Assembly: GCF_006345805.1 (NCBI RefSeq)
Contig: NC_042998.1
Coordinates: 174,096,001-174,160,000 of the forward strand
Direction: 5' to 3'
Source: Octopus sinensis
Taxonomy: Eukaryota
Length of the DNA stretch: 64,000 nt
Shown here: one piece after another, positions 27,484 to 62,964 of the stretch
Layout of the letters: every line of letters begins with the position of its first letter
Numbering within the stretch: the stretch's first letter is position 1
Notes under the pieces: model-generated
Seen by the model: only the letters and a program-made list of their open reading frames with translations
What the model was told of the DNA's origin: nothing
Databases searched by the model: none
Translations under genes and position numbers: made by a program

Positions 27484-27565
<82 letters not shown>

Positions 27566-27663
27566 AATAGTAAAAAGTGAAAAAACTACAGAAGGCTTAA
27601 AGGTTAAAAATATATATATATTTGCGTCAATATGTCTGAAGAATATTAAAATTTTTTTCCTTA

Positions 27664-27698
27664 CAAAGACCGGTTTCGCTTTTAGCTTTTCAAATTTC
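27664..27698 (-). ncRNA. Degenerate minimal type I hammerhead ribozyme motif in the Penelope pseudo-LTR
   Basis: Minus strand gaaat-TTGAAAA-gct-aaa-agc-GAAA-ccg-GTC-tttgt. The core differs from CUGANGA at two positions, and stem III is palindromic (ACCGGT). Confidence 0.45.
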
Positions 27699-28210
27699 TT
27701 ACGACGTTATGTTTATGTTGAATAGAGTTATCGTTATGTTTATGTTTAAAAGAGTTCTAAATAAGGGGAGGTAATGAGTGATTTCTTCCGGTGTAAGGAA
27801 GATAATCGCTTAAAATTTTTTTCCTTTCCCTTGGTGTGAATTTCTCTGTATCAGTATGTTGGCATGGTTAAGTCTGGGCTTGTACTTTTCAATGAAGAAT
27901 GTTTCCTTGTTTAGTCTAATTTGTGTTGATGATCCGATAGCACATTGGTAACATGGAAAGATTTAAAATTGTAGTAGTAGTTGCTTTGCGCATTTCTCAA
28001 TGTGCTCACTAAAAGGTATCATTCTGTATTCTGGGAATGCAATCTGTTGTCGATGCAGTGTGCATCTACGTCTGAGTGATAGTCCCGTGGATCCCACGTA
28101 GTCTTGGTGGCAGCCCGAGCATTTTATGAGATAAATTATGTTTTCAGAGGCACAAGTAAATTTAGATTTGATCTTGAAATTCTCTCCCTCTTTAAAGAGG
28201 AATTCTGATC

Positions 28211-28424
28211 CTCACAAAGACAAAATTGTTGGACATGTTGCACAGTTCGATCTACCACATTTTTTTACTTTTGCATCACTTAGCGGTTCGGCAAAAGAGA
28301 CCGATATAATAAGCCCAGTACTTATTCTATCGGTCTCTTTTGCCGAACCGCTAAGTGATGCAAAAGTAAAAAAAATGTGGTGGATCGAACTGTGCAACAT
28401 GTCCAACAATTTTGCCTTTGTGAG
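28211..28424. repeat. Near-perfect ~103-bp-arm hairpin interrupting the Penelope ORF, containing a SINE fragment
   Basis: Arms 28211-28313 and 28321-28424, 7-nt loop, about 3-4 differences. Confidence 0.95.
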
Positions 28425-29439
28425 AATCTTTTTAGGTTGTTTGTAGCTTTTAATAATTTGGTGTATGTTTAGAATTTCCTTTAATTTGGGGTCCTTATGA
28501 AGTATTGGTAAATTCTGGGTGATGATGGTGAAGGCTTCTTTGTTTCTGGGGTTGTATGTAGATATGTAAGGTAGTATTTTCGGGGAAGGTGTGTTGTTGT
28601 GTTGAACTTTTCTTAAAGTTTCTATGTTGATTTCTGTTGCACGTCTGATCCCATCCTCTATGAGTTGAGCTGGGTAATGTCTGTAAATTAGGGTGTTTTT
28701 TAGTTCTTGCAGTCTAAAGTTCCTGGTCTTTCTTCTAAACTATGTCATTGTAAGGAAAAAAAAATTTTAATATTCTTCAGACATATTGATGCAAATATAT
28801 ATATTTTTTAACCTTTAAGCCTTCTGTAGTTTTTTCACTTTTTACTATTTTCTATCTATTCAACCACGTGCTTTCACAAACCAACTTTCTTATCTATATA
28901 TATATACATGTATATATACTTTAAAAGTACCAGGAACACCATCCAACTACATCTATATATTCAAACCAGTTTGCCAACGGCACTTCAGTAACAACGCACA
29001 CTGATACGCTCAGTGACTACAACTAAATTCAGACACGACAGACAGAGTGGATGTTCTTCAAGCCGAGGATCGAAAACTTACGAAGACAATGGAGACACAA
29101 CTAGATCTCATTATGCAGGGAAACAGTTACATAATCAAGTAGCTGCACTCCTGGAGAACTATGTTGCGTGAAAACAATTGCAGCGATTAAAAAATAAACC
29201 ATACCCCTTTTTGTTGACTCCAATGTTTTCAATTACCTATTCACACACGACAGATGCCCAAGTACAAACCTGGAAGTACGTATAAAACTACTAATGGATA
29301 GCATAGGGTAAATCTGAAGCTGGGTGATCTTTATTCTGTACTCTACTACGTTCTTAACATAATATACCATAACTATATATGTGTGTATACATACACACAT
29401 ATATATGTTAATGTGTGCGAGTGCTTACACACACACACA

Positions 29440-31150
29440 GTCCAGATGAAACTTAATATCTCAGCAAAACTGGATATTATAATAAATTTGACTAAATTTT
29501 AATGTTGAATCTGTTATTGCTTTTAAAATAGCTTTAAAATAACATTTAATAAATACTTATATACATTCATTTCATAGTGGCTTCTTTATAGTAGACTATA
29601 CAAATGAGATTATCATAAACTTTACCGTCAGAATCTTAATTTTACTGTTAGATTTATACGTCGTGTGTTGTTGAGTTTCATTTGTAATATATGTTGTCCA
29701 CGTTCTTATTTCAGCATTAATTGAGTATTGCATGAAGCACAGGTTATTTCAATGGAGAGTTCTGTTGATTTAATGAGTTGTCTTCTAATGTCTGCCCCAC
29801 CTGGTTTTGTTTTGTGTTGCATTGCTCCTTGTAGCAAATTTATAATAAGTCGGAAGGCTGTCGTACTTGTATGACCAATATGAAAGTTGGACTTGTGATG
29901 TATATAAATGTCAAATTTTGCGATAGAATTTATGAATTCCCCTGGTCACCTGTTCGCGTGGTGACATGCTTGAGGTTTGTAGTTATTAAAGAAATTTTGT
30001 TTATTTACACTTCCTATTATTTGTAGTTATTTATAAAAGCTTGTTTATTTACACGTTCTGTTAATGCCTATTATAAAGCTTTGGTGTAATTTTCTTCTTC
30101 CTAGGCTGGTAGGAGAAATTGAGGAAGATATCCTCAAACCAGAGACCAGATCCCAATGCTTGCAAAGGCACCCAATGACCAGGTTTTCGTTATTAAATGA
30201 TATGGCGAGCTAAGTCTAACATACAAGTTTTATAAGTATTTTATTTTCTCAATTTATTGTTATCTTCCATAGTCATAATGCATTTCATTTATTTAAAACA
30301 CTTCATGTGCGATTTGTGCAAAGAAATATACGACCGGGCACATTTAGCAGACAACACGAAAACCGTGATTCTAATCGAAATTAATAAAGTCATCTGGTTG
30401 TGCTAACAAATACTCGATACCATATACGTGTGGATATTGGTAACATGTCCTTCAACCATACAAAATTCCATGTCCATTTTTATGGAGAGTAAAACAGAAG
30501 AGAAATGTTCCACTGCGATCGAAACAAGAAAACAGTTCAGAATTCTAGATATTTTGGTGAAATGGGTGGAATTATGTCGTCGGTTTCATCTTTCTTCAAA
30601 TATATTCGCATAATGTCAATCAGGTGCGAGGTCACTGCAACTGGGTACAGAAAGCTTTTACAAGGAGATGTCCGATAGTAATGCTAACGCTGAAGAAAAT
30701 CTTTGTTCTATGTTGAAAATGTACTCAAAGCTTTTGTCTCCTAGTGGCCCAGGTATTTTCTGTTGGCTAAAAATATTAGAAAAGCGTTCAGAAAACAACA
30801 CTTTAAAGTGAACACCACCTCACTTAACATTCTTTTCTCTCTGTAACGGCGTTGAATATAGGTGATGTTGTGTTTGTGGCAGATTATTCAAATTTTTTGT
30901 TAAACAAAGCAATGAATACACGAAAGGAATTAAGAGTACCAAGATATCACAGGACTTTCATCATCAAACTATCGCATGAGGAACATATGACTTAACTGTT
31001 GACGTTTTAAGAGCTGTAATTCTCTAACTGCAGTTTACAGCACATTTCCCAAATTCCTTCCAAGATTTTTAAATGATACAAAGATGCATTTTTGTCTAGA
31101 TCCATCTTGGATCAGTTATTTCGAAAAGATTACGACCAAACAGAGCAGAC
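29440..31150 (+). mobile_element. Possible very decayed DNA transposon relic (Academ-like N-terminus?)
   Basis: Broken coding-like stretches TSCAICAK and IRVDIGNMSFNHTKFH loosely resemble the Academ GD.iA.eaKYH motif. Weak. Confidence 0.2.
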
Positions 31151-31209
31151 TCAAACCTATATACGTAGATATACATATACTTTATTGAAAAGTAGCAAAA
31201 ATATCACGG

Positions 31210-31253
31210 AAACTGTTACTCAGAGTTTCACGTTCCCGTTCATCGGACAGCTT
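31210..31253 (-). ncRNA. Type I hammerhead ribozyme motif, near-canonical
   Basis: Minus strand AAGCTGT-CCGATGA-ACG-GGAA-CGT-GAAA-CTC-T-GAG-TA-ACAGTTT. Stem I has 7 bp, stem II 3 bp plus tetraloop, stem III is quasi-palindromic, and the cleavage triplet is GUA. The only core change is U4C. Confidence 0.8.
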
Positions 31254-31688
31254 TGTTTAGAATAGAACAAAATAAGGTTATATGTATAAATATACAATTA
31301 GTTTGATCGATGCACATTTGAAAATATTTTTGTTTCATTGGTCATTTCAACTAACATTATATTCAATGACCGGTTACATGAAATTACAATTGCGTTTTAA
31401 AATCGTATTATTATAAAAATCGAAGAAAACATTAGATCAAAAATAGCCATATAGAAGGAAAAAAGACCTGAATACCCAGGATAAATAATTAGTGGTAAAA
31501 GATAATAATAAATTTAAAGAAATTAAAAGATATATCATGACTCGGTTTTAATACAACCGAAATTCTTTCCGATACCCCGAGAAGAGGACAGCAACAAGTC
31601 TTGCAAAACATGTCTGGCAATTGAGAGAGAATGACACCTGTTCTTTCAATATAAGCTGGACAATTTTGGAAAAAGCACATCATATATA

Positions 31689-32086
31689 GGCGCAGGAGTG
31701 ATGTTTGGTAAGTAGCTTGTTTACCAACCACATGGTTCCGTGTTCAGTCCCACTGCGTGGCACCTTGAACACGTGTCTTCTACTATAGCCTCGGGCCGAC
31801 CAAAGCCTTGTGAGTGGATTTGGTAGACGGAAACTGAAAGAAGATCGCCTTATATGTGTGTGTGGGGGGGTTATGTCTGTGTACCTATTTTTGTCTCCCC
31901 GCTATTGTTTGACAACCGATCCTGGTGTGTTTACGTTCCCGTAACATAGCGGTTCGGCAAAGATAACCGATAGAATAAGTACTAGGCTTACAAATCATAA
32001 GTTCTGGGGTCGATTTGTTCGACTAAAGGCGGTGCTCCACCATGGCCACAGGCAAATGACTGAAACAAGTAAAAGAGTAAAAGAAT
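31689..32086 (+). mobile_element. Full-length tRNA-derived SINE (octopus OR-like family)
   Basis: tRNA-like head with A/B-box-like motifs, core gccttgtgagtggatttggtagacggaaactgaaag, internal TG tract, and 3' gcggttcggcaaa...aatgactgaaacaagtaaaagagtaaaaga tail. Confidence 0.9.
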
Positions 32087-32519
32087 ACAAACATGGAGCT
32101 TATAGAAAACCTATGAAATGTGATCTTAGCTTCCCAGAAAAGTTCTTCATCCAGTTCCAGGATAAACATCCATTGAACCAGAGACGCGAGCTCTTAAATT
32201 CATGCATGCATTTAAATTTGGCTTTACGCCTTATATATACTTAATTTTGTATTACAATGCTAGAACATATTACGACTTCACATTTTATATTATACATCCG
32301 ACTTTTAAGAAAGCCTTCGACTGTTTTACAAATTTAAACCTAAGTTTCGGCGAGGTTTATTTTGTACTCATTTTTACTCTTTTTTATATATTCAAATTTT
32401 ATATCTTAAATTAATATATTTACCTTATATTACATTTAATTATGTTATATTAATTATTGCACATATTTTAATATTCTATACATCAGACACATTTTTATGA
32501 GTGCCTATAACATATATAC

Positions 32520-34159: not shown

Positions 34160-34425
34160 CGCCCTCGGTCATAACGACCATGGTACTGCGCCTTGAAAAT
34201 TCCCCTCCAAAGCACAAGTCTGGGTAATGTTGTTTGTAGAAAACCTACAGTTCCCCATGCATACCAGCCTCCCCTCTCCACGCAACTCATTTCTACAGCT
34301 GAATGATCTGGAGCAACGTGAAGTTAAGTGTCTTGCTCAAGAAAACCACACACAGCCCGGTCCAGGAATCGAAATCATTACTTCATGAGTGCGCCCGACG
34401 CTCTAACCACCTAGCCATGCACCTT
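34160..34425 (-). mobile_element. tRNA-derived SINE (Meta/Ceph-like core)
   Basis: Minus-strand head aaggtgcatggctaggtggttagagcgtc...ttcgattcctggaccggg followed by ttcttgagcaagacacttaacttcacgttgctccag. Confidence 0.75.
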
Positions 34426-34615
34426 TTCCGCTCTCTCTCTCTCTCACTCTTTCTGATCGGTCGTGTTATTCTTTGCTCCGCAGTGAAATATTGTTTTTGT
34501 GCTGAAAAGTTTGAAAATTTGCTGTTTTGGTCGTCGAGGCCACTTCTTTTCTGCTGTTGCAGCAGAGTTCTGCTGTTCTTTCCCCCTTGTTTCAAGGGGG
34601 AAGTGACGAAAAGAC

Positions 34616-35939
34616 ATGAATTTGCAACCAATCTCCTCCGAGTCGGAGGAAAACGTTGAAAATTCGTTTGAAGGCATGAAGGCGAAAATGCGGGAGGAGG
34701 AAGGTAAAAGTAAAGAGACGTCTCACGCGCTCGTTACAAAAGCAGACGACAATATGTCTGGCGAAGCTAGTAAACGACAAGAAAAGGCAAAAATAAATTT
34801 TGCGAGTGCAGCAACTCGCCCCTGTGAAAATATAGTCATCAACAAGGAAGAATTAAAGAAATACCAAGGACTACTAAAAAAAGAAGGTGATAATGTGAAG
34901 TTGTTCCCTCCCAGTGAATTGATTTACGCGACGGAGAGAAAAACTGTAATTTACAAGACTTATAATGTCAAAAATAAGAAAATTGACTTCATACAGAGAG
35001 AAGCCATTGAAAAATGTTTGAGGCCGATATGGCAACAAACAAGTTATAAACAAGGGGTAGTCGCTTCGGCACGGTAGAGGTGCGTTTCCCTAGCGAAGAA
35101 ATAGCTAGGGAACATTCAACAAGAACGTTGAAGTCGGAAGAGGTAGTTCTTTTACCATTTTATTTAGGAATGAGAACTAGTAGAATAACGGTTACGGACA
35201 TTCCGCCCGAAATAGATGTGAACTTCATAACAGCAGCGATTCTTTAGGCAAAGAGGAAGAAATTGCCATTCTTCAGTCTAAAAGATATCGCCCCACAACC
35301 TGGTATGGACAGGACTTAGAGCTTGTGATCCAAGCGAACCCCTCGGACTTGGAAAAATTGCCAAGCTCCCTCACCATTGGAGATACCACCTTGATGGTAA
35401 TAGTCGAGGGAAGAAAACCGAGATGCTATAAATGTGGCGAGAAAGGCCACATACGGTCGAGCTGCAAGAAGACAGCGAAAGAAAATACTACAGAGGCAAG
35501 CACGACGCCGAAAACAACTTCACCGCTAGAAATAGCAGCCACGTCGCGCACCCCAATTGCCGAAATTCAGCCGACAACGGGAGAAAACAACGACAACAAC
35601 GATGACAACAACAACAACAACATCCAGGAGTGGGTCAACGTGGAAGCTTCAAAAAGAAGACGGAAACGGAAAAATCCACCCTCTTCGGATACACAGGACT
35701 ATACTCTGACACAGACAAGCACACCCACACCCACAAATACAGTCGCAAACACACACGTAGCCAAAAAAACACACACACTGGAAAAAGCACACACAAACAC
35801 TCACACACCTACCACAAGCACGCACACACCTACAGACACCCACGCTTCTACAAGCACACACACACCCACAAACACACACACACACAGCCCCCTCCACAAT
35901 CACCTAACAAAAAAAAAAGAAACACCTTCACGGCGATAA
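34616..35939 (+). pseudogene. Tx1 ORF1 (gag-like, CCHC zinc knuckle), frameshifted
   Basis: ORF pieces 34616-35077, about 35060-35250 and 35325-35939. Knuckle VEGRKPRCYKCGEKGHIRSSC. Confidence 0.85.
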
Positions 35940-36249
35940 ATAAAAACAATAACCCATTAAGGAAAAAATTAATTTACTGAAATCGGCGAAAAAAATATCG
36001 CAACAGATATAAATAGTATTATATCCGAAAATGTAGAATTTATACGATAGATAACGAGGATTATTTTGAAATTAAAAAATCTTTTGCGGAGGATGTAGGT
36101 CCGTTACAGATGAACTTTTCAAGCCATCTGTACAAGCAATTCGCAAAAAAACTGACCTCGCAAAACACAACACTCACAGACAGAAAAGATGAGGGTGAAA
36201 CTACACCCTCTCTTCCGTTAAAACAGTAAGTTTTAAACATTCAACTAAA

Positions 36250-39200
36250 TTTTCACATTCTCGTTTAAACTCGGTTGTATAAATATTCGCGGCCTGGGGT
36301 CGTATTGGAAGCAAGGCTACCTCCTTAACGACCTTAGGTCGCATCGTTTGGATGTAGTGGTAATTACCGAATCCAGACTGAGTGGGCTGCAGGCTTTTTC
36401 GCCCCTTCTAAACGGCTACGAGAAATACATTTCTCCCTGTCGACCTGGAGGGGGAGGAGGAGTGGCAGTGCTGGTCAGGAAAACCTGGATTTAGAGATTA
36501 GAACTGTCTTTATAGATCCGGAAGGCAGGTTGGTCGTTTTGGATGTGACGCACAGCAGTGGTAAAGTGTTCAGGCTGGTCGCTGTCTATGCTCCCTGCGA
36601 GGAAAAGCCGGGCAGAAAGAGTATTTCAAAAGCCTAGAGAATTTTCTTGGCACGTCGAACACGTTAGTATTGCTAGGTGACTTCAACATAATTTGCGATG
36701 CAAGCGTAGATTATGTTGGCTCAAGAAAGAATACGAGGGGATTACCTCACCTCAACGATATGCTAAGTCGTTTCGAATTGGCAGATAGATTCAGACTGGA
36801 CCATCCAGACATTCCAGAGTGGACCTGGGCAAGAAACGACGGGTCGTCCAGATCTTATATCGATAGAATCATAACTAGAAGGAAAGATAAGAGAATACTT
36901 AGCTGTCCACAACACCATATCGTCAGCTACAGCGATCACAAATTAGTGACATGTACGCTCGACATAGATAGCATGTGTAGACGAGGTACCGGCTACTGGA
37001 AGCTAAACAAGTCACTATTGGACTGTGAAGCCTACAGGAATCGGATTAAACAATTAGTAATGAGGGCGTTAACCGGATCCATTATCAACAATAAATGGTG
37101 GTACGCCCTGAAAAGAGCCATCAAATTTGAGCCAATTAGGTTTAGCAAAGAACTAGCTAGTGCTAGAAACAAAGTAGAAAAGGAACTAGTTAAGGCTATA
37201 GAGGAGGCAATGAGGTCAGGCTGTGCATCGAAAGTGTTAGCGGCGAGGTTAGCACTAGACCAACATCTCCAAGCTAAACATGAAGGGTGCATTATTAGGG
37301 CTAAGATCCGTGCAATGAGACAGGAAGGGATCAACGCAGCCGGATGGGCCCGGGTGGTAGAGGCCAGCGTGGCAACAACTCAACCATTCGATCCTTGACG
37401 GGCCCAAATGGTCGATTAGTAAACGAACCCGAGGAGATGTGCAAGGTGTTTCATGATCATTTCGCCCAGCTATTCGGGAGGAGCGGCGAGCTGGAGCGCG
37501 GGGAGAAGCTCGCAGACTTCCTAGCCGGTTCGCCGCGTCTATCGGGGCCGACACGGAATCTTGTGAGGCGCCGATCACAGCCAAAGAAGTCGAGGATATG
37601 TTGGCAGAATGCGGCGGGGACAAATCGCCGGGACTCGATGGTCTGCCTTACGAACTCTATAGTAGCATGCCAGCTTGTTTGGGCACCTACTTGCATGCGT
37701 GTACACCAACTGGCAGCAGAACGGGAGAATTCCTAAGTCTGTGAGCCGAGGGGTGGTAGCGTTGTTAAGAAAGGACCCAAACAAGGGGGATTTAATTGAT
37801 AATTTCCGGCCTATCACTCTGCTTAACGCAGAGTTGAAGATCTTGGCCAAGGTCTTAGCAAAAAGGTTGGCGAGGGTCGTGGGTGAACTTGTTGGCGAGG
37901 CGCAAACTTGCGCCATCCCTGGAAGGACCATCCACGACAATCTCCACTTTCTACGCTATGCCTTAGAAAGGGTAAATAGGATTCCTGGCAAGGGTGGGGC
38001 TATGGTCCACTTGGACCAATCGAAAGCGTTTGATAGGGTGGACCATCAGTATCTGGCGGCGGTCCTCGCGGCGGCTGGCTTCGGCCCGACCTTCCGCGGA
38101 TGGATCATCGCTTTATACAGCAACATCGAATCGGTAGTTCGTGTAAATGGTTTCCTTTCGGAGCCGTTCAGCATTGAACGTTCGGTACGTCAAGGGTGTC
38201 CTCTCTCCCCGCTTCTCTACGTTTTGGCCCTCGAGCCGTTGCTGAGGAGGTTGGAAACTATGAGAGGCACCCCGCAAGATCTAGGGTGCGGAAAGTCAGC
38301 TTCGGCGTATGCGGACGACATCACCGTCATCGTTTCCCGAGTCGAGCACCTACAGTGGGTGGGTGAGGCCTTAAGGACTACGAAGCGGTGGCAGGAGCGA
38401 AAGTCAACCGGGATAAATCGGTCGGCTTGCAACTCGGCACCTGGAGGGGCAAGTCGATGTCTTCCGACAGCGTCGTAGGACGTTGGACGGAAGGACCGGT
38501 GAAAATGCTTGGGATCTGGTTAGGTCCAGATCTCCAGATAGAGAAGAATTGGAGCGAGGTGGCGAGAAAGGTGGCTCTCCTAACTCAGACATGGTCTGAA
38601 CGGAATCTGTCCTTGAAAGGGAAGGCGGAGGTTGCAGAAGTGTTTATCGCCTCTGTAATCACTTACCGCCTAACCGTAGTGCCTTGCCCCGATTCGTGGC
38701 TGAACAAACTGGAACGCATGCTCTTTCGCTTTTTGTGGAGGGGCAGCAGACCTCTTGTAAGGCGCTCTATTTGCTGCCAAAAGCCGCTGAACGGTGGGTT
38801 AGGGATGCCGTGGCTAAAAATGCGCAGACATGCGCTCAGGCTTAGGCACCTCTGGATTTACCTGGACGGTGAGCAGGTGTGGTCTCCGTTTGTCAAGCTG
38901 TTATTTCCACAGTTCACATCGTTTAACGAACTGAACCCATGGATCAAGTGTAGACCGAGGTTGGGCATGTGGCATGCAGAGTGCTATCAGGCACTCGTGC
39001 TTCTCTCCCAGTCGGGCAACGCCGGTGGCGGGGCTACTACACACCGCGTTCTTCTATAGAGGGTTAGTAGAGTTTAAGTGTGACGACGTCCTAGGAGAAA
39101 CTCTGGGCTTCGACGAAAATCAACTGGCCAGCCTGTTCCAAAGAACATTCGGTCCGGGGCCTATGGATAATTACCAAAAGTCCCTGGCCTGGCAATGTTA

Positions 39201-39662
39201 CAGAGGAGCTTTACCGGTTCGAGATAAGCTCTTTAGACATGGGTGTGCACCTTCGCCGATTTGTGCAAGATGTAAGAGGGACAGTGAAACTGTCCTGCAC
39301 GCGATTGTGCAATGCCCCAAGGTGACTGAACTCTGGACTTATGTCGAACACCTGCTGTCGCATTCGAGAAGAGTACAACTGTCGAGCGAATCTGTAATTA
39401 AGATAGTTCCGCCGACCTTCCTGAATAGGGAGGAGCGAGCCTGTTTTCTTTCGGTAGTTGCTATGGCGAAAGAAGTAGTGTGGAAGACGAGAGTAAAAGG
39501 AATTGCAACAGGCATGTTTATCTCCAGTCTCGAGCTAATCGACTTTTTCGTTTTCCACATGAAACGGAAAATAAGGCTGGAGAAGAATGCCTGTCGCAAA
39601 GTGTGTTTCGTAAAAGATGGAAGTCTATAGCAAGTATGTTGCGAGTGAAAGAACCTATTTAA
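36250..39662 (+). pseudogene. Tx1 ORF2 (APE endonuclease, RT, C-terminal zinc finger), several frameshifts
   Basis: GCINIRG, VYAP, LGDFN, SYIDRI, SDHKLV, GYWKLN, KSPGLDGL, FRPITLLNAELKILAK, LDQSKAFDRVDH, QGCPLSPLLY, YADD, GGLGMP, CARC...ETVLHAIVQC. Confidence 0.93.
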
Positions 39663-40054
39663 TCGAGAATGTAAAAAAGGATAAAGCAAAGTCTTCAGTG
39701 TGAGTATGTTGTTTGTGGGGTCGACCGCGTCCTCCGCTTCATTTTTTGTTAATCACTCATTCTCATTTAATTGTATATATATTAATTGTTTGTTTATTCA
39801 TGTTTCGTCTCATTCGATACCCTGACCCCAACGTTTGTTTTGTCCCCTCTTTTTCTCAACCTTATGGTGAATAAAGAAATACTCTCTCTCTCTCTCTCTC
39901 TTTCTCTCTTTCACTTCATACATATATGTATAAAATATGTGCACCACGGTAGAATACGTTCAAAAGGACAGCCATATTTATGTGGCTACGAATATTACTT
40001 GATAGTACAACTACTGAGTTGATCTCTTAGAGAGTTTTTAGAACTAGCATTTTG

Positions 40055-40076
40055 GCTTATATATATATATGTAGGT

Positions 40077-40149
<73 letters not shown>

Positions 40150-41280
40150 ATATATATATATTATATATATATATGTGTGTGTACGCTTGTGTGTTTATGT
40201 ATATGTAGGTATGTAGAGTTATGTGTGTATGTATGTATGTATATATACATATGTGTAAATAGGTATATATGGGTATGTTTATATGTATGTATCCGTCTGT
40301 ATAATGGGTAACTGCACGTATATATATTATTATTATTATTTGAGTATGCATGTATGTATATATGTATATGCCTGTATGCATGTATGTATTTATGAACATA
40401 AGGAGGCGCGTGTGTGTGTGTGTATGTGTACGCATATATATATATATATGTATATATATATGTATGTATATATATATGTATATATATGTGCGAGTGTGTA
40501 TACATATGTGTATATATATATATATATATGTGTGTGTATGTGTATATATGTATGAATGTATATGTGTATGTATATGTATATTTATATGTGTATGCATATA
40601 TATATGTATATGTGTATGTATATGTATGTATGTGTATGTATGTGTTTGTGTATATGTGTATATATATTTATTAGTGTATATGTATGGACTAGTCTTCTGT
40701 GGGTGTATTGAGGTATGTATGTGTATGCGTGTAGATATGAATCAGTAGGTACGTGTACGTATGTGAATATACGTGAATGTATGTAGATGTATGTGTGTAT
40801 GAATATAACACGTGCGTGTGTGTATGGGTATGAGTGTACGTGTGAGTGTGTGGGCGTGAGTGAGTGTTTGCGTTCGTATCAGTGAGTAGATAGATAAATG
40901 GACTCTTTAGATCATCCCTTGAGACCGGCTGACCGCGGTCAAGATAAAAATAAAGATATAAACAAAAGTAATAATAAAATTAAAATAAGGGAATAAAAAT
41001 GTGTGTGTATGTGTGTGCATGTATATGCATGTGTATATGTGCGTATGTATATATATGTGCGAGTGTGTATACATATGTGTATATATATGTATGTATATGT
41101 GTATTTGTGTGTGTGTACATGGGTATGTGTATATATATGTATATATATGTATATATATATGTAAATGTATGTATGTGTATATATATATGTATGTATATAT
41201 GGGTATGTATGTATATATATAGATATATGTGAATATGTGGGTGTATATATATATATATATATATATATATGTAGATGTAC
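40055..41280. repeat. Compound (TA)n/(TG)n/(TATG)n low-complexity tract
   Basis: Seen directly. Similar tracts at 32510-32690, 33040-33215, 33860-34140, 44810-45240 and 57780-58335. Confidence 0.9.
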
Positions 41281-41493
41281 AAGTGAGAGTCTCCTTACTT
41301 ACCTAAAACTCTATTTTTCTATTTATTCTTTTATTCTTTTATTTATTCTTTTATCTACTTTACCACCGATTCCTTTGACCACTCCCCTAATAATGACAGT
41401 TTTGCGCCATGCCTACCCCCAAAAAAGTCCCCCACCACCACCCATTTAAACCTGCCTAAATGTATAAATGCCAGAACAACTCTTGTCTACTAG

Positions 41494-41537
41494 CTACCTG
41501 ATGATTTCTTTTGAATGAAACAGTTCTAGTCCTGTAG
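41494..41537 (+). ncRNA. Degenerate hammerhead-like motif downstream of a TATA box
   Basis: ctac-CTGATGA-tttc-tttt-gaat-GAAA-cagttctag-TC-ctgtag. Core intact, stems I and III imperfect. TATAAAT at 41463. Confidence 0.45.
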
Positions 41538-41819
41538 AAGCTCCTTCTATATAATATATATATTATATATATATATATATATTATATATATATCTCGGCT
41601 TAAGTCATTTCGATTTAAATCGTTCTGGATTATACGTCGGTTTTCAAGAATAATATATGAAAAAATAAAAATCAAGTTAAGTCATTTTATTCGACCTTAC
41701 GTCTGTCCACTACAAATATTGGAATCGTAAAATCACTAGAAGACCGTTAAAAGCACATAAAATCATGTTACTGTATTTTAGATAAGAATAGACGTCATAT
41801 TTCTTTGCTCAATATCATT

Positions 41820-42335
41820 TTGATTGTTTATTATTGGACATGAGATGATATTACGCACGAGTCTTCCGTCAGTAGTCGAACTAGAATCGTGGATTGGTGT
41901 CGGGAAGTACGCTCCGACAAAATCCCATAGAAATCGGTTGTTTGGATGTTAATGGACAGCCATTAGTTGTAGAAATTGACGAAAGCAAGTTCTTTCATCG
42001 TAAATATCATCGAGGTGAGTGGCGCCCTAGCCATTCGGTGGCATAGAGAGAGTCTCTAAAAAGTGCTTTTTGGTCGAAGTGCCTGACCGTACTCAACAAA
42101 CTTTAACTGTGCCGATACAAAGATGGATTTTACCTGGGACTCACATAGTCAGTGATGGCTGCCGTGCGTATCCTGAATGATGGTGCCTACACGCACGAAG
42201 CGATTATATACCAACAAAATTCTGTTGATCCTCATGATCAACACGTCTACACTCAAAATGTGGCAAGGCGTAATTCCACGGATAAAAACAACACAGTTTT
42301 TTCACTTTCTGGCCGCGATCGTCAGTGTTTATGCT
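41820..42335 (+). mobile_element. Merlin (IS1016/ISXO2-like) transposase relic
   Basis: VVEIDESKFFHRKYHRG...FGGIERVSKKCFLVEVPDRT...RWILPGTHIVSDG...THEAII.QQNSVDP...VYTQNV, frameshifted. Confidence 0.88.
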
Positions 42336-42765
42336 GAGTAAAAAGTAAGTTCTTCCTTAGACTAATCAATCCACCCCTTAATTTTTATTTACTTTTTTAA
42401 TATAACCATATTGAACAATTACCATAAAAGCATATAAAAATCATATGAATATACGTACAGTAAATGTTAAGATACACACCATAAAGAGGTGTTGCTCAGT
42501 GAACGAAATCATGAAATCAGCTGTGCCTTGGCTCCGAGTAAGATATTATATCTGCAGAACTTTTAAATACATGCTGGAAATGAAAACTAAAGAAAAATTA
42601 ATTATCTGTCTTTCGGAGCTCATATTGTACTGTAGTTCCAATATCTACCGTTAGGCGTCATTGCCACTCGTGATTCCCGCGATTGTTTAGAATTCAGATT
42701 TGTTTACGTTTGTTTATCGACTATTTTCTCATTCTCATTCATTTGTGACTTGATTTTTTGCTTCC

Positions 42766-43190
42766 ATCGCTCCTAAGAAAATTCATAGTCAAAGTGCTAA
42801 GCGTCATTCTATAACGCTGGAAGATAAACTGGCTATGATAAAACGCCATGAAAAAGGTGAAAAGGTGGTAGCAATTACACAATCTTTTGGAATGAGTCGC
42901 ACAACTGTATTGACGGTTGTCCGTAATAAGGACAAGATTTTAGCACATATCAAATCTGAAGCCCAAGGAATGAAGAACGCGGTCATCAATAAGAAGAGGG
43001 GCAAACTTTTTGAAGAAATGGAAAGTCTTTTTCACTTCGGATTGTTAGGTTGGATCGTCAAGAGAAAGAGTTGTCTTTGTTTGAGGACCTGAAGAAAAAA
43101 AGCATCCAGATGAGAAAGATGTAGAGTTCAAGACAAGTCAAGGATTGCTCATGAGATTGAAGGAGCGAAAAAGTTCTCATTCCATTGAAA
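42766..43190 (+). mobile_element. Tigger/pogo transposase N-terminal fragment (HTH_psq / CENP-B type)
   Basis: KRHSITLEDKLAMIKRHEKGEKVVAITQSFGMSRTTVLTVVRNKDKI...KKRGKLFEEMESL...FKTSQGLLMRLKER. Confidence 0.85.
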
Positions 43191-43757: not shown

Positions 43758-43837
<80 letters not shown>

Positions 43838-43944
43838 TAATAATAATAATATGACAGCAAAAGAATGAATGGCACCTCGATATTATTATTTAAATAGAGG
43901 AATTTATCTATAAATATAATATAAGACGATCAGTTAGTTGTCAT

Positions 43945-44005
43945 AATAAAACTTAGACTTTCGGATGTCAGGGCTGAAGCCTGCTTCGGTATCTCATCGG
44001 TTATT
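43945..44005 (-). ncRNA. Degenerate hammerhead-like motif with extended stem II
   Basis: Minus strand AATAA-CCGATGA-gatacc gaagc ag gcttc agccctgacatcc-GAAA-gtctaag-TT-TTATT. Shares the CCGAUGA core and a GAAA-(c/g)tct(g/a)ag-t stem III with the 31210 motif. Confidence 0.4.
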
Positions 44006-44339
44006 GAGGTAAAAACGCTATGAAAAAATCCGTCGAATAAAGGGAAGTTACTCCAATAGGCATGGTGAAAGTAAAACTTCGTTCATACAATCTGCTTATG
44101 CACACATGTACACACATATACATACACTTTTCTCTATTTTGTATGTAAGACAGAAAAGATATCAAAAAGACAGGTCGGTTCCTCTCTAATATTTTGTAAA
44201 TTCTTAAATATATCTCCTGTGTATACATATACTACCAAACAAACAGGATTTTTATTGAACTCCTAATACTTTTTGTTGAATACTTTCTTAAATACTTTCT
44301 TGTAAACTGTTTTTAACATTTTGTTATTATTATCAAAGA

Positions 44340-46901: not shown

Positions 46902-47274
46902 GAGGAAGATGAGAATTAGGATTTAATGTCTTATAATCAAGTTTAAGTATAGTAAAATAAGATTCTTCTCTGCATGCGTTTTTAACATATCAGTACAGAC
47001 CAAAATTTGTAGGATGCCTCACTGTACAGACAACACACATCTCTGTCGCTGCAGAATTATATACTGAAAACAGTAAACTGAAATCGAACAAGGCAAGTGA
47101 AATAAGTCAACCTTTTGACCTTGCATTACCTCCAGGAAGTGTCTGTACACGGTGAGGCAGCATCCGAAAAATTTTAGGCTGTGCTGACATGTTAAAAATG
47201 CATGCAGAGAAGGGTCTTATTTTACTTACTTAGATCTGATTATGAGACATTAAATTCTAATTCCCAACTTCCTC
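46902..47274. mobile_element. Old fold-back element, ~130-bp diverged arms
   Basis: 46902-47032 is the imperfect reverse complement of 47140-47274. Confidence 0.75.
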
Positions 47275-51008: not shown

Positions 51009-51227
51009 AAACACATCATTCATACACCAGCACCACCACCACCAACACCCTTGGTAAGATTTTAGTAACAGTGAATTACTTCCTTTTTGGTTTCAAATTG
51101 CGTTTAGCCACCACGCTATTTTTTAATTTTCCCATTACGATTTTGCAAAATCAGCCATTGATTCCTATGGTAAATTCTATAAATACCGAGAGGCGAAAGT
51201 TCAGCTTCACCACCCGCGATGAAGTAA

Positions 51228-51280
51228 GCATTACTGATGTGCATTAGTTTGTATGCGAAATTAGCACGTTAATCTAATGC
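51228..51280 (+). ncRNA. Type I hammerhead ribozyme motif with A9U core change
   Basis: GCATTA-CTGATGT-GCAT-tagtttgt-ATGC-GAAA-TTAGC-ac-GTTAA-TC-TAATGC. All three stems pair, the triplet is AUC, and TATAAATA lies 50 bp upstream. Confidence 0.75.
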
Positions 51281-51674
51281 ACCTCGTTTCCGGTTATACA
51301 TATATATAAAGAAACACTCGTTATCGCTATGGACTCCGTGTGGGAAGTCATCTAAAAGTTTTTGTTCATCATGATGCTGACATAAGTTCCTTGTCTTTCC
51401 TGATGAGAAGGCGGCATAATGCACCCCTTATTCCTTCGAAATTAGTAATATGCAGTCTTCGAAACATATGTCGAGGATAAAGGAATTTTGTTAAATCGTC
51501 GTTCAACTCCATTCTTTCATTTATTGGTATTAAAAAAAAACACACAAATTTCCACACGAAACACGTGATCTCTGCCCTTGGCATGTAGCTTCAACCGTGT
51601 TTTTCTGACGTGAATTTGCTACCCGGGTATCGGTTAACCGAATTATCCATACTAGGATAATTCATTCAACTACT

Positions 51675-51714
<40 letters not shown>

Positions 51715-52534: not shown

Positions 52535-52535
52535 C

Positions 52536-53223: not shown

Positions 53224-53665
53224 GAGTGAGAGAGCAGTTCATGCCATCAAAATGACACTGGGGTAAAATATACGAAGCCCAATATACCCATCATGACTAC
53301 CCGTCTGATAAGGGTACACCAGACACATGCATCACAACCATATGTGCGCGACATGGTGATCTCATATCAAGATAAACAGCACATGACCTTGCAGGTGGGG
53401 CCCAGTTAGAATTTTCTTCAGGTTGAGTAGCCCATCCCGCTCAAAAGGTCCCTGAATAAGGGTTGTTTAAGGACGTTGAAAGAACCAACCATGTTTCCAG
53501 AGGTGAATTATTCAAACCCCAAAGAATCCCTCTCAACACATGGCTATGATGCTCCCCCACTACTTCTGCTCGTGATCAGAGATGCACATATCATCAGCCA
53601 CTAAGGGACATGCCCAACTGGTTATTATTATTATTATTATTATTATTATATTATTATTATTATTA

Positions 53666-53715
<50 letters not shown>

Positions 53716-54268
53716 GAGTGAGCGAGCAGAGCATGCCATCAAAGTGACACTGGGGTAAAATATACGAAGCCCAGTATACCCATCATGACTACCGTCTGAT
53801 AAGGGTACACCAGGCACATGCATCACAACCATATGTGCGCGACGTGGTGATCTCATATCAAGATAAACAGCACATGACCTTGCAGGTGGAGCCCAGTTAG
53901 AATTTTCTTCAGATCGAGTAACCCATCCCGCTCAAAAGGTCCCTGAATAAGGGTTGTTTAAGGACGTTGAACGAAACACCCATGTTTCCAGAGGTGAATT
54001 ATTCAAACCCCCAAAGAATCCTTCTCAACACATGGCTATGATGCTCCCCCACTACTTCTGCTCGTGATCAGAGATGCACATATCGTCAGCCACTAAGGGA
54101 CATGCTCAACTGGTTAAGGTCAAACAACTGACAAGCAAATCTGTGGTATTGAGCAGAATATTTGCTGTAGCCCATCTTTTATACCAAGACAAAACAATGT
54201 ACATGATAACACTTCCAATCAGTTAAGATCAGAAGCCATGAGAGCCACTGCCTGGTACTGCATCAGGG

Positions 54269-58303: not shown

Positions 58304-58334
<31 letters not shown>

Positions 58335-58899: not shown

Positions 58900-59553
58900 T
58901 TTAGTCGTCAAGTTACAACAAAAGAAACCTAGCAAGCATTCAAAGCCACCTTTGTGCCAGTTCTTTGATCTCACGCTGATTCCAGTTCTTGTTTTCCAGG
59001 CAAAAAACCCCTTCACTGAAGCTTCCACCACCTCTTAGCTGAGTTGCGTGCGTAGGAGATTATCCATGGATCGGAACGTGTATTAATCCGAGAGAGCAAG
59101 ACCCGGACTACATGCTGGATATGGCTTCATTTCGATTTCACCAAGTTCCTCGAGTTTATTCCGGATCGTTCTAGTGGTATGATATCTTGTGTTGTCTTGC
59201 TGCAGAAGAGCTTACTTTCTGTTAACCAATGCTGGATAATTTTGCTGCACAATGGCATACATCCGCTCCAGCTGTTTGGAGAACAGGATGACATCGATGG
59301 TCAGACTATCTGGAAAGAACTTGTAGTCAATCATGCGATAATTCCAATAGATGCAAAGAAACACCCCGAGCTCGCTCATGTTTTGCGAGAGGTTCCAGAA
59401 GCTGACCCTAACTCAACCACTATTTATGCACTGTTTATGCGGAAAAATATCTCCCACGGATTATTACTTGTCAGTAACTCAATTCCTGCACTTAGGCTGC
59501 TTCAATAAGAAGAGATAAAAGATTCTGTAAAGGAGTTCTTCGTTTCGGAGGAC
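58900..59553 (-). mobile_element. mariner (DD34D) transposase relic, cut by the assembly gap
   Basis: Minus strand SKQLERMYAIVQQNYPALVNRK*ALLQQDNTRYHTTRTIRNKLEEL...PYPACSPGLALSD*YTFRSMDNLL...VEASVKGFFA. Confidence 0.85.
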
Positions 59554-59653
59554 NNNNNNNNNNNNNNNNNNNNNNNNNNNNNNNNNNNNNNNNNNNNNNN
59601 NNNNNNNNNNNNNNNNNNNNNNNNNNNNNNNNNNNNNNNNNNNNNNNNNNNNN
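59554..59653. other. Assembly gap (100 N)
   Basis: Run of exactly 100 N. Confidence 1.
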
Positions 59654-59820
59654 CTTGACAACCGATGCTGGTGTGTTTACGCCCCGTCACTTAGCGGTTC
59701 GGCAAAAGAGACCGATAGAATAAGTACTAGGCTTACAAAGAATAATTCCTGAGGTCGATTTGCTCGACTAAAAGCGGCGCTCCAGCATGGCCACAGTCAA
59801 ATGACTGAAGCAAGTAAATG
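59654..59820 (+). mobile_element. 3' half of OR-like SINE
   Basis: cttgacaaccgatgctggtg...aaatgactgaagcaagtaaa. Confidence 0.9.
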
Positions 59821-59948
59821 AGAGAGAGAGAGAGAGAGAGAGTAAATCAGCAACAAAAAGAGAGAGAGAGAGAGAGATAGTAAATCAGAAACTAATAAAA
59901 GAATAGCTATAATTAACAATTGTTATTAAAACCTTGTAACGATTAAAG

Positions 59949-59987
<39 letters not shown>

Positions 59988-59993
<6 letters not shown>

Positions 59994-60485
59994 GCTATGG
60001 TTAAATTTTTGCCATATTGTATTTTTAATTTCACGCATGTCCATTGTTTGCTCTTGATTTTCTCGACTATACAGTATAGTAGGGTCAGTTGGGCACCGTC
60101 TGTGAGAAAAACACCACCATGACGCACTTCACTCAACCAGAAATTTAGAAACGACATGCTGTACTGCTTGGCATTCGCGCCGGAAGCTCCAATGCGAACA
60201 TTTCAGAGTGTTTACGTGTCAATCTGAAGACAGTGCAGAGGAATCGGAATGAGTTTAATGAGTATAATGGTGATTACGAAGGTGCGGTAGCACGGAAAAC
60301 TCACTTTGATCGTTCTGATAAGAAAAGAACTCTTGGATTACTCGGTGATATCCAGGCAATGATTGACAACGATCCCTCCAAGTCAATCAGGGCCATCTAT
60401 AGGGACATGGGAATGTGTGCATTTCTTATCAGGCAGGTATTGCATGAAACATTTGGTGTTCCTCATACAAGGGGAGAAAGAGCAA
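59988..60485 (+). mobile_element. maT/DD37D-like transposon 5' fragment
   Basis: End tagggtgctatggttaaatt. KRHAVLLGIRAGSSNANISECLRVNLKTVQR...RSDKKRT...IQAMIDNDPSKSIRAIYRDMG. Confidence 0.8.
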
Positions 60486-60539
60486 ATATATATATATACA
60501 TACGTACAAACAAATATTTACATGTAGCACGATGAATAA

Positions 60540-62160
60540 AAAGTGGAATAAAAGAAACAGAGAGAATAGGGGAGAAGGGAAAGGTAGTCTGGTGAAAGCA
60601 TACGTTATTGTTAGTCAGCGTAATCTATCTATGCAGCCAAAAATTAAGTTAGGGATTACAGCTGATCAAACAGAGAGATAGGAACAGTTGAGCGATGAGG
60701 GATTTGAGTAGGGACACGGGTAATGGAGGAAGAAAGTTTGTTGAAATAAGGAGAATATGGTAGACGGAGAAAATACGAAAGAAAATGGTGCTAACATAGC
60801 TAAATAATAAGGGTTTTATCGGCAAGTAGGAACATTTATAAAGAATTTAAGTAATGAGTAAATGTGGAATAAAATTTATGTTACATGAGAAGATTATATG
60901 AAAGAACCTATTGAATAACAATAGCGAAGAATAGCGAACGACTCCTTACAACATAACTTACAAACGTGGTTAGTGTTGTACGGAGAAACCCAACAAACTT
61001 CAAACCAGGATAATGTATGGGAAATATCCTGGCACTTCATGTGGTGTATATATGAAGCTAAGGAAGTAAAGAGATTAGAGGTTCTGTTTGGGATTAAATT
61101 CAGGTGAGCCCAATAGTGATGCTTGAAATCAACGCTGCCACCAATGTAGACCCTAGAGAAGTCGGCAGAAATTGGGTGTTATTACCCAGTATTTATATAC
61201 GACGTTATAGCGTAAACAAAATCCATCTAACTGGCATAGCTCAGAGACCCGACAATTAAAGGCTTTCTCGCTAACGGTGGGCTCAGAATTCGCCCCTATC
61301 CTATACAAAATCATACGATCAATTATCCACGTAATAAGATTGGAGGTGTTATCGTTACTAGAATGGAGCTGCGAAAAGGCATCATCATCGTCACATGTGT
61401 CAGGGTTAAATGTACTGAGAGGTGATGGTACTAATGTCGCTATTATTGAAGGGGGTAGGATTCGTGAAGCTCATACTATTAGTATCTAGCGGGTTAGGTT
61501 GGAGTCCAGATGAGTGATTCGTAGAGACCATAGTCAAGCGGCTAAGATTGCATTTATTGGAAGAAGCAATTTTAGATCTCAAGATTGGTGATGCACAGTA
61601 TGAGATTTTTTGAAGATAGGTAATATTGATGATGTGGTAGGAAATTAGAGCTTAGGATTTTGAAAAATAGCCTAGCTAAAGATTTAACCCGGAGAGATAA
61701 TGGGAACAGAAATGATAAGTTCTGCTTTCTGCCATTGGTAAGGCTTAGAACCAGGCTTAGTGATGAAAATTAATCAACCTCCGAGGTGGCCGGAATACCA
61801 GGTGAGTGCAGGCCGCGGGGAAACTCTGTTGCAGGGTGAGGGGCTGTGGATCGGTAGAGAAAAGCCTGGTGGGCTTAGATTTCGTGCTAGAAAAGAGACG
61901 TTCGATTTTGTTTTTTGTCTGTTAATGGGAGTATATGACACATTCTCGTGGAAACCTCCATTCTAGTTATAGTACTGGATATTCTCATTAGCTGATTTCT
62001 CATTTCGGATTCTATTCGAAACACCAGTGATAATGTAATCAAGGGCAACTCTAGGGTGATCAGATAGAACATTGATATATTGTAACGACTCAAGCGGTTT
62101 ATGGTAAAGGTAAAAGAGATTAGCATCTAAGTCAAGAATCATAACTTCATGTTTTAGTGT
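60540..62160 (-). mobile_element. Decayed Penelope-like element (RT C-terminus, linker, GIY-YIG)
   Basis: Minus strand ILDLDANLFYLYHKPLESLQYINVLSDHP...LFFKILSSNFLPHHQY...NCRVSELCQLDGFCLRYNVVYK...VYIGGSVDFKHHYWAH...TSLASYIHHMK...CKLCCKESFAIL. Confidence 0.82.
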
Positions 62161-62663
62161 TGTTTTCGAATAAGATAGATTATAATTATTAAAAACTTTT
62201 TTAATTCACTAGGCTAGCTTTAACATTATCTTCTCTCCTTCTCTCTCTGTTTCATATATTCTACCTCTGTTCCTTCTTTATTATGTTGTAGAAATCCTCC
62301 TCTATGTGAGTGGTTACTAGTGACATACCTATGATTTTATCCATACTAAATCTGAAATTTATGACGGTTATGATTATTGCGTTACTATAAGCTTCCTCAA
62401 AGAGATGTCGAGTTAAGAAATTGCATATTTTTCTGTATTCTTTGTATTCCATGTAAATATATGTATATGTATATATACGGGAGGGGTTTGGGGAGCGTGG
62501 TGGCTAGGTGTGTTCGCGTGTGTGTATGTCTTTTTGTGAATATATGTAGATATGTATATGTACGTATATGAATATATACATGCGTATGTATATAAGTATG
62601 TATATATGTATCTATATATATATAATATATATATATATATATGTAAATATATATAAATTTAAA

Positions 62664-62964
62664 AAAACACCTTTTATCAATTCAAAATGAACAATTAAAT
62701 TAAACCATCTAGAAAATTACATAAAATAGAAATATTAAAATTAAAGTAACAATAAAATACCGATGATTAAGTAAATTGCAAAGAATAATAATAAAAACGT
62801 ATATAATTGGAACTTTTTTATTATTATTGTTTTATTATTATTTTTTTTGCAATTTACTTAATCATCGGTATTTTATTGTTACTTTAATTTTAATATTTCT
62901 ATTATATGTAATTTTCTAGATGGTGTAATTTAATTGTTCATTTTGAATTGATAAAAGGTGTTTT
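62664..62964. repeat. AT-rich long hairpin, ~133-bp arms, ~33-bp spacer
   Basis: 62664-62796 is the near-perfect reverse complement of 62830-62964. Confidence 0.92.

What the first reader, a model, noticed from the sequence alone, without database searches (positions are those of the whole stretch)
27561..62964. Possible octopus retrozyme-like system: several hammerhead-bearing repeat families alongside Penelope relics and fold-back ends
Seen: five hammerhead-like motifs within about 24 kb (27664, 31210, 41494, 43945, 51228) in sequence contexts that do not obviously align with one another. Two follow a TATA box by 30-50 bp, most sit beside (TA)n tracts, and only one is attached to an RT/GIY-YIG ORF. 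Two Penelope relics and several AT-rich long hairpins are also present. Inference: this genome may host a diverse set of non-autonomous, microsatellite-associated, self-cleaving retroelements mobilised by Penelope proteins, possibly via circular RNA. I am not aware of these families being described, but cannot verify novelty.
Basis: inference. Interest (0 to 1): 0.72.

Follow-up and report, generated by a model that had tools for sequence, protein, structure and literature searches.

The report
Penelope ends plus one old retrozyme
Five of the six hammerhead (self-cutting RNA) motifs here are cut-off ends of ordinary Penelope-type jumping genes, while the sixth belongs to an old, protein-free 343-base repeat whose copies carry the same insertion marks and were likely pasted by a borrowed Penelope enzyme.

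Summary
The five motifs are real type I hammerheads; I found a sixth at 51400. Each marks a separate repeat family (247–2,855 first-look candidates). The reading "mostly non-autonomous" fails. Five families are 3' ends/pseudo-LTRs of endonuclease-bearing Penelope-like elements: one Neptune-like, four Hydra-clade. Other copies join them to GIY-YIG or RT frames, and one locus shows hammerhead–ORF–hammerhead. This is in print, including an octopus Hydra family.

The motif at 51234 differs. It lies in an ORF-less 343-nt unit whose majority sequence folds strongly (z about −7.8). Copies are up to 1.8 units long and end at a fixed site about 194 nt past the cut site, at (TA)n. Two-armed copies end at +194 and about +147, like the Penelope "tail". 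This is a retrozyme-like family, likely copied by a Penelope enzyme, possibly from a circle.

The family is old (16 of 47 cores intact). The window copy is truncated and has a changed core base. No helper element and no RNA evidence were found. The scan has noted younger retrozymes with this footprint on other DNA.

The parts
27563..28890 (-). F1: 5'-truncated Neptune-like Penelope element (end of RT thumb plus GIY-YIG, 3' UTR) with an inverted copy of its 3' end (28744-28852) that carries the tail
   Evidence: (GIY-YIG PF01541 E 0.0066, below cut-off)
27663..27700 (-). F1 hammerhead, U3-A8 core variant with palindromic helix III; predicted cut between 27668 and 27667; window copy lacks 18 nt just after the cut, so helix I is broken
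   Evidence: alignment of 12 copies; U3-A8 variant known from PMC4209133
28207..28428 (.). 222-nt internal fold-back with a piece of a short interspersed repeat, interrupting the F1 ORF
   Evidence: (93% self-complementary)
31158..31536 (-). F2: 3' end/pLTR of a Hydra-clade element
31209..31254 (-). F2 hammerhead, C4 core variant, helix I at least 7 bp (8 in the family), GUA triplet; predicted cut between 31217 and 31216
   Evidence: strict hit; (47 distinct rows)
31540..32211 (+). Inverted GIY-YIG fragment of the same F2 element (31540-31677 and 32074-32211), split by a short interspersed repeat
   Evidence: tblastn E 1e-13 and 1e-9; three pieces 80-88% identical to the contiguous EN-HHR stretch of L119
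40058..41559 (+). F3: 1.5-kb microsatellite-rich 3' UTR and pLTR of a young Hydra-clade element; TATA box at 41463
41492..41542 (+). F3 hammerhead; predicted cut after 41536; window copy has one helix I mismatch that the 13 other aligned copies lack
43835..44127 (-). F4: short 3' end of a Hydra-clade element, ending at a (TAA)n/(TA)n tract
43944..44006 (-). F4 hammerhead, long helix II (8 bp in the family), GUU triplet; window copy decayed
   Evidence: 20 distinct rows
51046..51294 (+). F5: remnant (about -228 to +20 relative to the cut site) of an ORF-less 343-nt retrozyme-like unit; TATA box at 51178
51228..51280 (+). F5 hammerhead: helix I 6 bp, helix II 4 bp, palindromic helix III, AUC triplet; predicted cut after 51274; window copy has U in place of A9
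51307..51675 (+).
51396..51476 (+). F6 hammerhead: core 51400, 46-nt insert in helix II, GAAA at 51461, palindromic helix III, GUC triplet; predicted cut after 51472
   Evidence: diverged relatives at 67-87% keep the core, helix II base and helix III; same layout in L229
60540..62450 (-). Second Penelope relic: old Hydra-like RT/EN, heavily decayed, boundaries approximate, no hammerhead found
   Evidence: 87 candidates, other copies 67-78%; RT hits at 61924-62142
62661..62975 (.). AT-rich fold-back: two inverted ~140-nt ends between (TA)n; family copies carry an extra tail on one arm, also seen here at about 63444-63514; no hammerhead seen in the stump, parent element not identified
   Evidence: (1,253 candidates)

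Best explanation
The six hammerheads belong to six repeat families: five are 3' ends of endonuclease-coding Penelope-like retrotransposons and one is an ORF-less 343-nt unit that was likely copied by a Penelope-type enzyme. Shown: family membership, links to GIY-YIG/RT frames, fixed 3' ends at (TA)n, inverted second arms with a different fixed end. Inferred for the five: the endonuclease nicks (TA)n, reverse transcription starts at one of two internal sites near the RNA's 3' end and usually stops early, leaving hammerhead-bearing stumps and fold-backs (confidence about 0.9). Inferred for F5: a TATA-driven transcript from a copy with two hammerheads is cut to a 343-nt structured RNA. A borrowed Penelope RT starts at +194 (second arm at about +147) and runs past the cut-site junction, giving copies of more than one unit (about 0.75). 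A circular template is the simplest reading, at about even odds. The family looks long inactive, and the window copies are fossils.
For: Own-family endonuclease in the same locus (tblastn, >=50% identity): F2 5 of 31 loci, F3 5 of 20, F4 5 of 13 (3 same-sense, 2 inverted), F6 2 of 13. F1 11 of 11, but that query included the ORF end. L226 holds an F3-type hammerhead, a 688-aa open frame and a second F3-type hammerhead as direct repeats. F2-related ends (69%) flank 727-766-aa frames in 4 loci and F6-related ends (64-69%) follow 747-923-aa frames in 4 loci. Clade motifs follow PMC8557442: RWR/RWK, DKT, CxCX5C and no CCHH in the F2-F4 and F6 families (not every motif in every family); CX4CxxC plus CCHH in F1. 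F5: period 343 nt. Of 44 independent loci, 25 end at +186 to +199, 35 exceed one unit and 3 run past the upstream cut site. (TA)3 lies at the 3' end in 28 of 44 against 18% background. Of 48 loci 10 are two-armed, and 6 of these pair +189-197 with +138-147. Majority unit folds at -117 to -120 kcal/mol, z -7.4 to -7.8, against z +2.3 to -2.7 for the other five family ends. The two repeats within a locus are closer (0.175) than repeats between loci (0.197-0.216) and share more derived bases (2.7% against 1.0-1.3%).
Against: Most fetched copies of F2, F3, F4 and F6 show no ORF in the flank examined, so ORF-less sub-lineages of these ends cannot be excluded; short F6 copies share a clustered 5' start. 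For F5: no helper was found among 16 RT-bearing loci. Only 16 of 47 copies keep an intact core. An exact pattern for two intact cores one unit apart found 0 matches. Only L162 holds two full hammerhead regions, both decayed. Natural monomers fold only at z about -2. The own partner was nearest in just 7 of 27 loci. One of the two F5 searches used a tandem query, and both favour copies longer than one unit. Only 40 candidates are scored per DNA search, so all counts are of top hits. Cleavage was not tested for any motif.
Confidence: 0.8

Rival explanations
1. One reading: all or most motifs are independent non-autonomous retrozyme families moving through circular RNA.
For: Six unrelated families, most copies short and ORF-less in the flanks examined, 3' ends at (TA)n.
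Against: Five families are linked to endonuclease frames in other copies. They show no unit-length direct repeats in the loci examined and no strong fold. Solo and inverted hammerheads from truncated Penelope elements are described in PMC4209133.
Confidence: 0.05
2. F5 is ORF-less but was copied from linear read-through RNA of a tandem master locus, with no circle and perhaps no role for self-cleavage.
For: No copy found is longer than 1.8 units. Hammerhead cleavage was not needed for insertion by a purified Penelope protein, and uncut RNA was the main template (PMC11167929). A homogeneous tandem master would also give similar repeats within a locus.
Against: The whole unit folds back on itself with its two cut ends joined by helix I. 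Left-left repeats are hardly closer than left-right repeats (0.197 against 0.206), so there is no sign of two distinct master units. No long array appeared among the 48 loci.
Confidence: 0.35
3. F5 is the pLTR of an autonomous Penelope-like family that I did not find, and the repeats are tandem pLTRs.
For: Penelope elements form partial tandems (PMC8557442). Vertebrate retrozymes are related to pLTRs (10.64898/2026.07.22.740005). Flanks examined were only 1.5-3 kb for most loci.
Against: None of 47 loci has a contiguous same-sense ORF; the 6 with a Penelope hit are separate insertions. The one shared alternative upstream sequence proved to be a DNA transposon carrying a single F5 insertion.
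Confidence: 0.15
4. The motifs are chance matches in AT-rich repeat DNA.
For: Rfam finds no hammerhead. The loosest descriptor is not above shuffles.
Against: Strict hits 2 against 0.028. Family majority sequences are better hammerheads than the window copies. Diverged F6 relatives keep core and helices while the loop changes.
Confidence: 0.01

Closest known systems
Hydra-clade EN+ Penelope-like elements, including Hydra-1_Obim (Craig et al. 2021, PMC8557442; passages, section 11 and supplement hits read)
   Same: C-terminal GIY-YIG without CCHH, CxCX5C linker, RWK-like and DKT motifs, hammerhead near the 3' end, (TA)n targets, inverted arms and tails. An octopus member with a hammerhead is listed in files S1 and S2.
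   Different: By eye the Hydra-1_Obim protein start and hammerhead differ from F2, F3, F4 and F6, so these look like further families. F3 has a 1.5-2.5-kb microsatellite-rich 3' UTR, whereas Hydra elements are described as generally under 3 kb.
Neptune/Nematis-type EN+ Penelope-like elements and their minimal hammerheads (Cervera and de la Pena 2014, PMC4209133; parts 1-2 of 4 read)
   Same: F1 has the CX2-5CxxC linker and CCHH. U3-A8 cores, palindromic helix III, an extra base beside helix II, solo motifs and opposite-strand pairs are all described.
   Different: F1 has one extra U between helix I and the core. Clade assignment is by motif only, with no tree against reference sequences.
Metazoan non-LTR retrozymes (Cervera and de la Pena 2020, PMC7229834, passages read; Li, Clavereau and Pollet 2026, 10.64898/2026.07.22.740005, parts 1-3 of 5 read)
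   Same: F5: no ORF, about 300-nt unit (343), GC under 45% (40.5%), canonical 6-bp helix I and 4-bp helix II, head-to-tail repeat, strongly folded unit.
   Different: Found as dispersed copies of up to 1.8 units, not as dimers to multimers with intact hammerheads. Fixed paired ends like a Penelope tail are not described in the parts I read. No RNA evidence. No cephalopod example in my searches.
PAc Poseidon element in vitro (Frangieh et al. 2024, PMC11167929; parts 1-2 of 4 read)
   Same: Two internal RT start sites define the tail; AT-rich targets are cut on both strands. This matches two fixed ends in F1, F3, F5 and F6.
   Different: Shown for an autonomous element on its own RNA, not for an ORF-less RNA in trans.

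Membership tests
EN+ Penelope-like elements (F1-F4, F6) | RT followed by C-terminal GIY-YIG endonuclease upstream of the hammerhead end | tested here: met
   Pfam hits weak and below cut-off (RVT_1 E 3.6e-5, GIY-YIG E 0.001)
EN+ Penelope-like elements (F1-F4, F6) | Hammerhead-bearing direct repeats (pLTRs) flanking the ORF | tested here: met
   L226 for an F3 sister subfamily (87%); L230, L231, L236, L237 for F2 relatives (69%); not shown for F1, F4, F6
EN+ Penelope-like elements (F1-F4, F6) | 5' truncation, inverted second arm and optional tail | tested here: met
Hydra clade (F2, F3, F4, F6) | CxCX5C linker, RWK-like and DKT motifs, no CCHH, (TA)n targets | tested here: met
   linker degenerate in F2 relatives and not seen in F6 relatives
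Hydra or Neptune clade | Placement in an RT tree with reference elements | not tested
   no reference set was held as sequence; comparison with supplement text by eye only
Non-LTR retrozyme (F5) | No protein-coding frame | tested here: met
   0 of 47 loci with a contiguous same-sense Penelope ORF
Non-LTR retrozyme (F5) | Head-to-tail unit of a few hundred nt, low GC, with a type I hammerhead | tested here: met
   343 nt, GC 40.5%, 35 of 44 loci longer than one unit
Non-LTR retrozyme (F5) | [quoted passage not shown] | tested here: not met
   exact pattern 0 matches; only L162 has two hammerhead regions, both decayed; top hits only, so not exhaustive
Non-LTR retrozyme (F5) | Strongly base-paired unit RNA | tested here: met
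   majority unit z -7.4 to -7.8; two natural copies z -2.0 and -2.2
Non-LTR retrozyme (F5) | Self-cleavage and accumulation of circular RNA | not testable with these tools
   only assembled contigs were available
Non-LTR retrozyme (F1-F4, F6) | ORF-less tandem unit | tested here: not met
   linked to endonuclease frames; no unit-length direct repeats in the loci examined

The most novel reading that the evidence does not exclude
F5 is a fossil cephalopod retrozyme whose dispersed copies record a Penelope-type reverse transcriptase priming both nicked strands of (TA)n on one 343-nt circular RNA, at two fixed sites about 47 nt apart, and running past the ligated cut site. This would be direct genomic evidence for how animal retrozyme circles are written into DNA.
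Probability: 0.4. Interest if true: 0.6.

Novelty: new member of a known kind. Interest (0 to 1): 0.36.

Why it matters
Most of the finding is known biology: hammerheads at the ends of truncated Penelope-like elements, with an octopus example already catalogued. The part worth keeping is F5. Published work proposes that Penelope proteins move animal retrozymes but rests on co-occurrence and sequence kinship, and says the mechanism is open. An ORF-less unit with fixed, paired Penelope-style ends and more-than-unit copies names the template, the start sites and the target for a trans-mobilisation assay. Its age makes it a weaker test object than the young families noted elsewhere in this scan. 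Separately, a young Hydra family carrying a long microsatellite-like 3' UTR may help explain the density of degenerate (TA/TG) tracts in this genome; that was not quantified.

Tried and rejected
Rfam: no hammerhead model matched; microRNA hits are microsatellite artefacts. The repeat finder was swamped by microsatellites, so a masked self-BLAST was used. First pairing of the 51400 motif with the GAAA at 51438 was rejected after diverged relatives. A shared upstream sequence in four F5 loci looked like an autonomous parent. It is a DNA transposon with hAT-like transposase pieces (label from recall) carrying one F5 insertion, so these four loci were dropped from the 48 before counting 44. Exact pattern for an intact F5 dimer: 0 matches. 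No F5-like end in 16 RT-bearing loci or among the other window families. Sequencing runs: no RNA holder listed. Contigs from runs guessed to be RNA cover parts of the unit at low depth and cannot show ends, strand or circles. In three runs of unrecorded kind no high-depth contig spans the unit, and the one unit-length 'goes back' joint matches the locus itself. None of this counts for or against expression. No hammerhead was seen at the 3' end of the second relic family or in the 62661 fold-back. Literature searches for prior description: hammerhead+Penelope+octopus, retrozyme+cephalopod, hammerhead ribozyme+octopus+retrotransposon, retrozyme+Penelope+tail+inverted+target-primed. None listed a cephalopod retrozyme. 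The supplement of PMC7229834 could not be read, bioRxiv supplements are closed, and the supplements of PMC4209133 and of the octopus repeat annotation PMC13282606 (passages only; no mention of ribozymes) were not opened; any of them, or Repbase/Dfam, may already list these families.
Full report
Observation. All five motifs are in the sequence as type I hammerheads, and a sixth core lies at 51400. A strict descriptor gave 2 hits against 0.028 on average in 1,148 shuffles; allowing one core mismatch gave 3 against 0.54; the loosest setting (6 against 3.1) was not beyond chance. The window copies at 27664 and 43945 fail the descriptor and rest on family alignments. Rfam found no hammerhead. The six contexts do not align with one another. 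TATA boxes precede two of them by 29 and 50 nt.

Families. Each motif marks a dispersed family. First-look candidates: F1 (27664) 1,805; F2 (31246) 1,595; F3 (41498) 1,201; F4 (44000) 2,026; F5 (51234) 247, or 1,006 with a longer query; F6 (51400) 2,855 for a query that also held the F5 remnant. Only 40 candidates are scored per search, so later counts describe top hits. Family majority sequences are better hammerheads than the window copies: the deletion after the F1 cut site, the F3 helix I mismatch, the F4 changes and the F5 A9-to-U change are not the family state. F1 has a U3-A8 core, a variant reported for Penelope elements in PMC4209133. F2 has C4. For F6, relatives at 67-87% identity keep the core, the base of helix II, the second GAAA and a palindromic helix III while a 46-nt loop varies.

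Five families are Penelope ends. F1 lies 3' of a GIY-YIG frame in the window, with an inverted copy of its end that carries the tail. F2 in the window abuts an inverted endonuclease fragment split by a short repeat; the three pieces match one contiguous stretch in L119. An own-family endonuclease lies in 5 of 31 F2 loci, 5 of 20 F3 loci, 5 of 13 F4 loci and 2 of 13 F6 loci. L226 shows hammerhead, 688-aa open frame, hammerhead as direct repeats for an F3 sister subfamily; relatives of F2 and F6 flank or follow long open frames. A protein search with the F3 RT returned 151 matches, many inside long open frames, so helper enzymes exist in the genome. By motifs defined in PMC8557442, F2, F3, F4, F6 and, by similarity to them, the second relic are Hydra-clade, and F1 is Neptune-like; no tree was built. 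That paper's supplement lists an octopus Hydra family with a hammerhead and (TA)n targets. The fold-backs fit the inverted-arm-plus-tail layout described there, including the 62661 family, whose parent I did not identify.

One family is different. F5 loci (64 fetched, 48 distinct) show a 343-nt period. Four loci are one insertion carried by a DNA transposon and were set aside. Of the other 44, 25 end at +186 to +199 from the predicted cut, 35 are longer than one unit, 3 extend past the upstream cut site, and 28 have (TA)3 at the 3' end against 18% background. Ten of 48 are two-armed, six pairing an end at +189-197 with one at +138-147; I ran this check after earlier scan notes described paired ends in other families. 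The majority unit folds at z -7.4 to -7.8, the other five family ends at +2.3 to -2.7, and two natural F5 copies at about -2. Repeats within a locus are modestly closer than repeats between loci (0.175 against 0.197-0.216), but the own partner is nearest in only 7 of 27 loci. No contiguous ORF was found in 47 loci and no F5-like end in 16 RT loci. Both F5 queries favour copies longer than one unit.

Mechanism. Shown: the anatomy above. From PMC11167929: a purified Penelope protein cuts AT-rich DNA on both strands and starts reverse transcription at two internal sites that define the tail; hammerhead cleavage was not needed. Inferred: the five Penelope families left truncated and inverted ends by that route. 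Inferred for F5: the same kind of enzyme, in trans, started at +194 and about +147 on an ORF-less RNA and ran through the cut-site junction. A ligated circle explains this most simply; an uncut linear tandem transcript explains it nearly as well. The family is old: copies are mostly 76-89% identical to the majority unit, 16 of 47 cores are intact, and no intact dimer matched an exact pattern. The window copy stops at +20 and has a changed core base, so it would be inactive. Public runs offered only contigs and say nothing on expression.

Comparison and novelty. Hammerheads in truncated Penelope ends are known (PMC4209133). Non-LTR retrozymes are known from coral, mussel, axolotl and many vertebrates, with Penelope mobilisation proposed but not shown (PMC7229834; 10.64898/2026.07.22.740005). 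F5 works like such a retrozyme and meets the sequence features, but fails the two-intact-hammerhead criterion in the copies found, so I call it retrozyme-like. Searches listed no cephalopod retrozyme and no description of paired fixed ends in retrozymes; unread supplements and repeat libraries may hold these families. A sequence look-up in the scan's own notes found nothing like F5, while 140 notes hold the same key words and several describe younger families with this footprint in the same genome (unchecked).

Verdict. Observation partly confirmed; interpretation partly supported. Mostly ordinary Penelope debris, plus one old retrozyme-like family with an informative footprint. New member of a known kind; interest 0.36.

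Noticed in passing
window 34300-39900 (+): Near-complete, frameshifted LINE: endonuclease PF03372 at 36565-37395 and RT PF00078 at 37666-38475, with an upstream ORF1-like region; a similar ORF1-like piece lies at about 7900-8600 (-) (by eye).
   Followed up: partly
window 40058-41280; L084, L098: The degenerate (TA/TG) tracts are part of the F3 element's 3' UTR and are shared between copies at about 85-96% identity; retrotransposition may be spreading simple-repeat-like DNA. F4 has a similar 700-900-nt tract.
   Followed up: partly
L171-L174, L178-L197: A DNA transposon family with hAT-like transposase pieces (label from recall) carries one 406-nt F5 insertion at a TA tract and has multiplied it.
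   Followed up: partly
window 51321-51328; L055-L066: Many short F6 copies begin at nearly the same base, about 15-20 nt below a TATA-like word, often right after (TA)n; they may be copies of a short pLTR-initiated transcript.
   Followed up: no
L236:9096 and 9628; L227:2313/2424; L234:821; L229:522: Further hammerheads with long helix II inserts; the L236 pair is a direct repeat 532 nt apart, a candidate younger retrozyme.
   Followed up: no
window 42754-43089 (+); 60149-60532 (+); about 41900-42300 (+): DNA transposon relics: CENP-B N-terminal domain PF04218 (E 1.5e-11), a weak helix-turn-helix, and a broken frame resembling a Merlin/IS1595-type transposase (last label from recall).
   Followed up: no
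window 53224-54113: Two direct copies of a 398-nt repeat (95% identical), each preceded by (TTA)n; the repeat also occurs in L106, L131 and L116.
   Followed up: no
window 15566-15800, 20448-20600, 27080-27310, 46902-47274; 24137-24346 with 24979-25188: Hairpin-shaped or inverted-end elements that look like miniature DNA transposons; no hammerhead noted.
   Followed up: no
window 21479-23138 (-); 16101-16595 (-): Transposase-like open frames with no Pfam match above cut-off.
   Followed up: no
window about 59555-59654: A 100-base assembly gap (N run) beside a short interspersed repeat.
   Followed up: no
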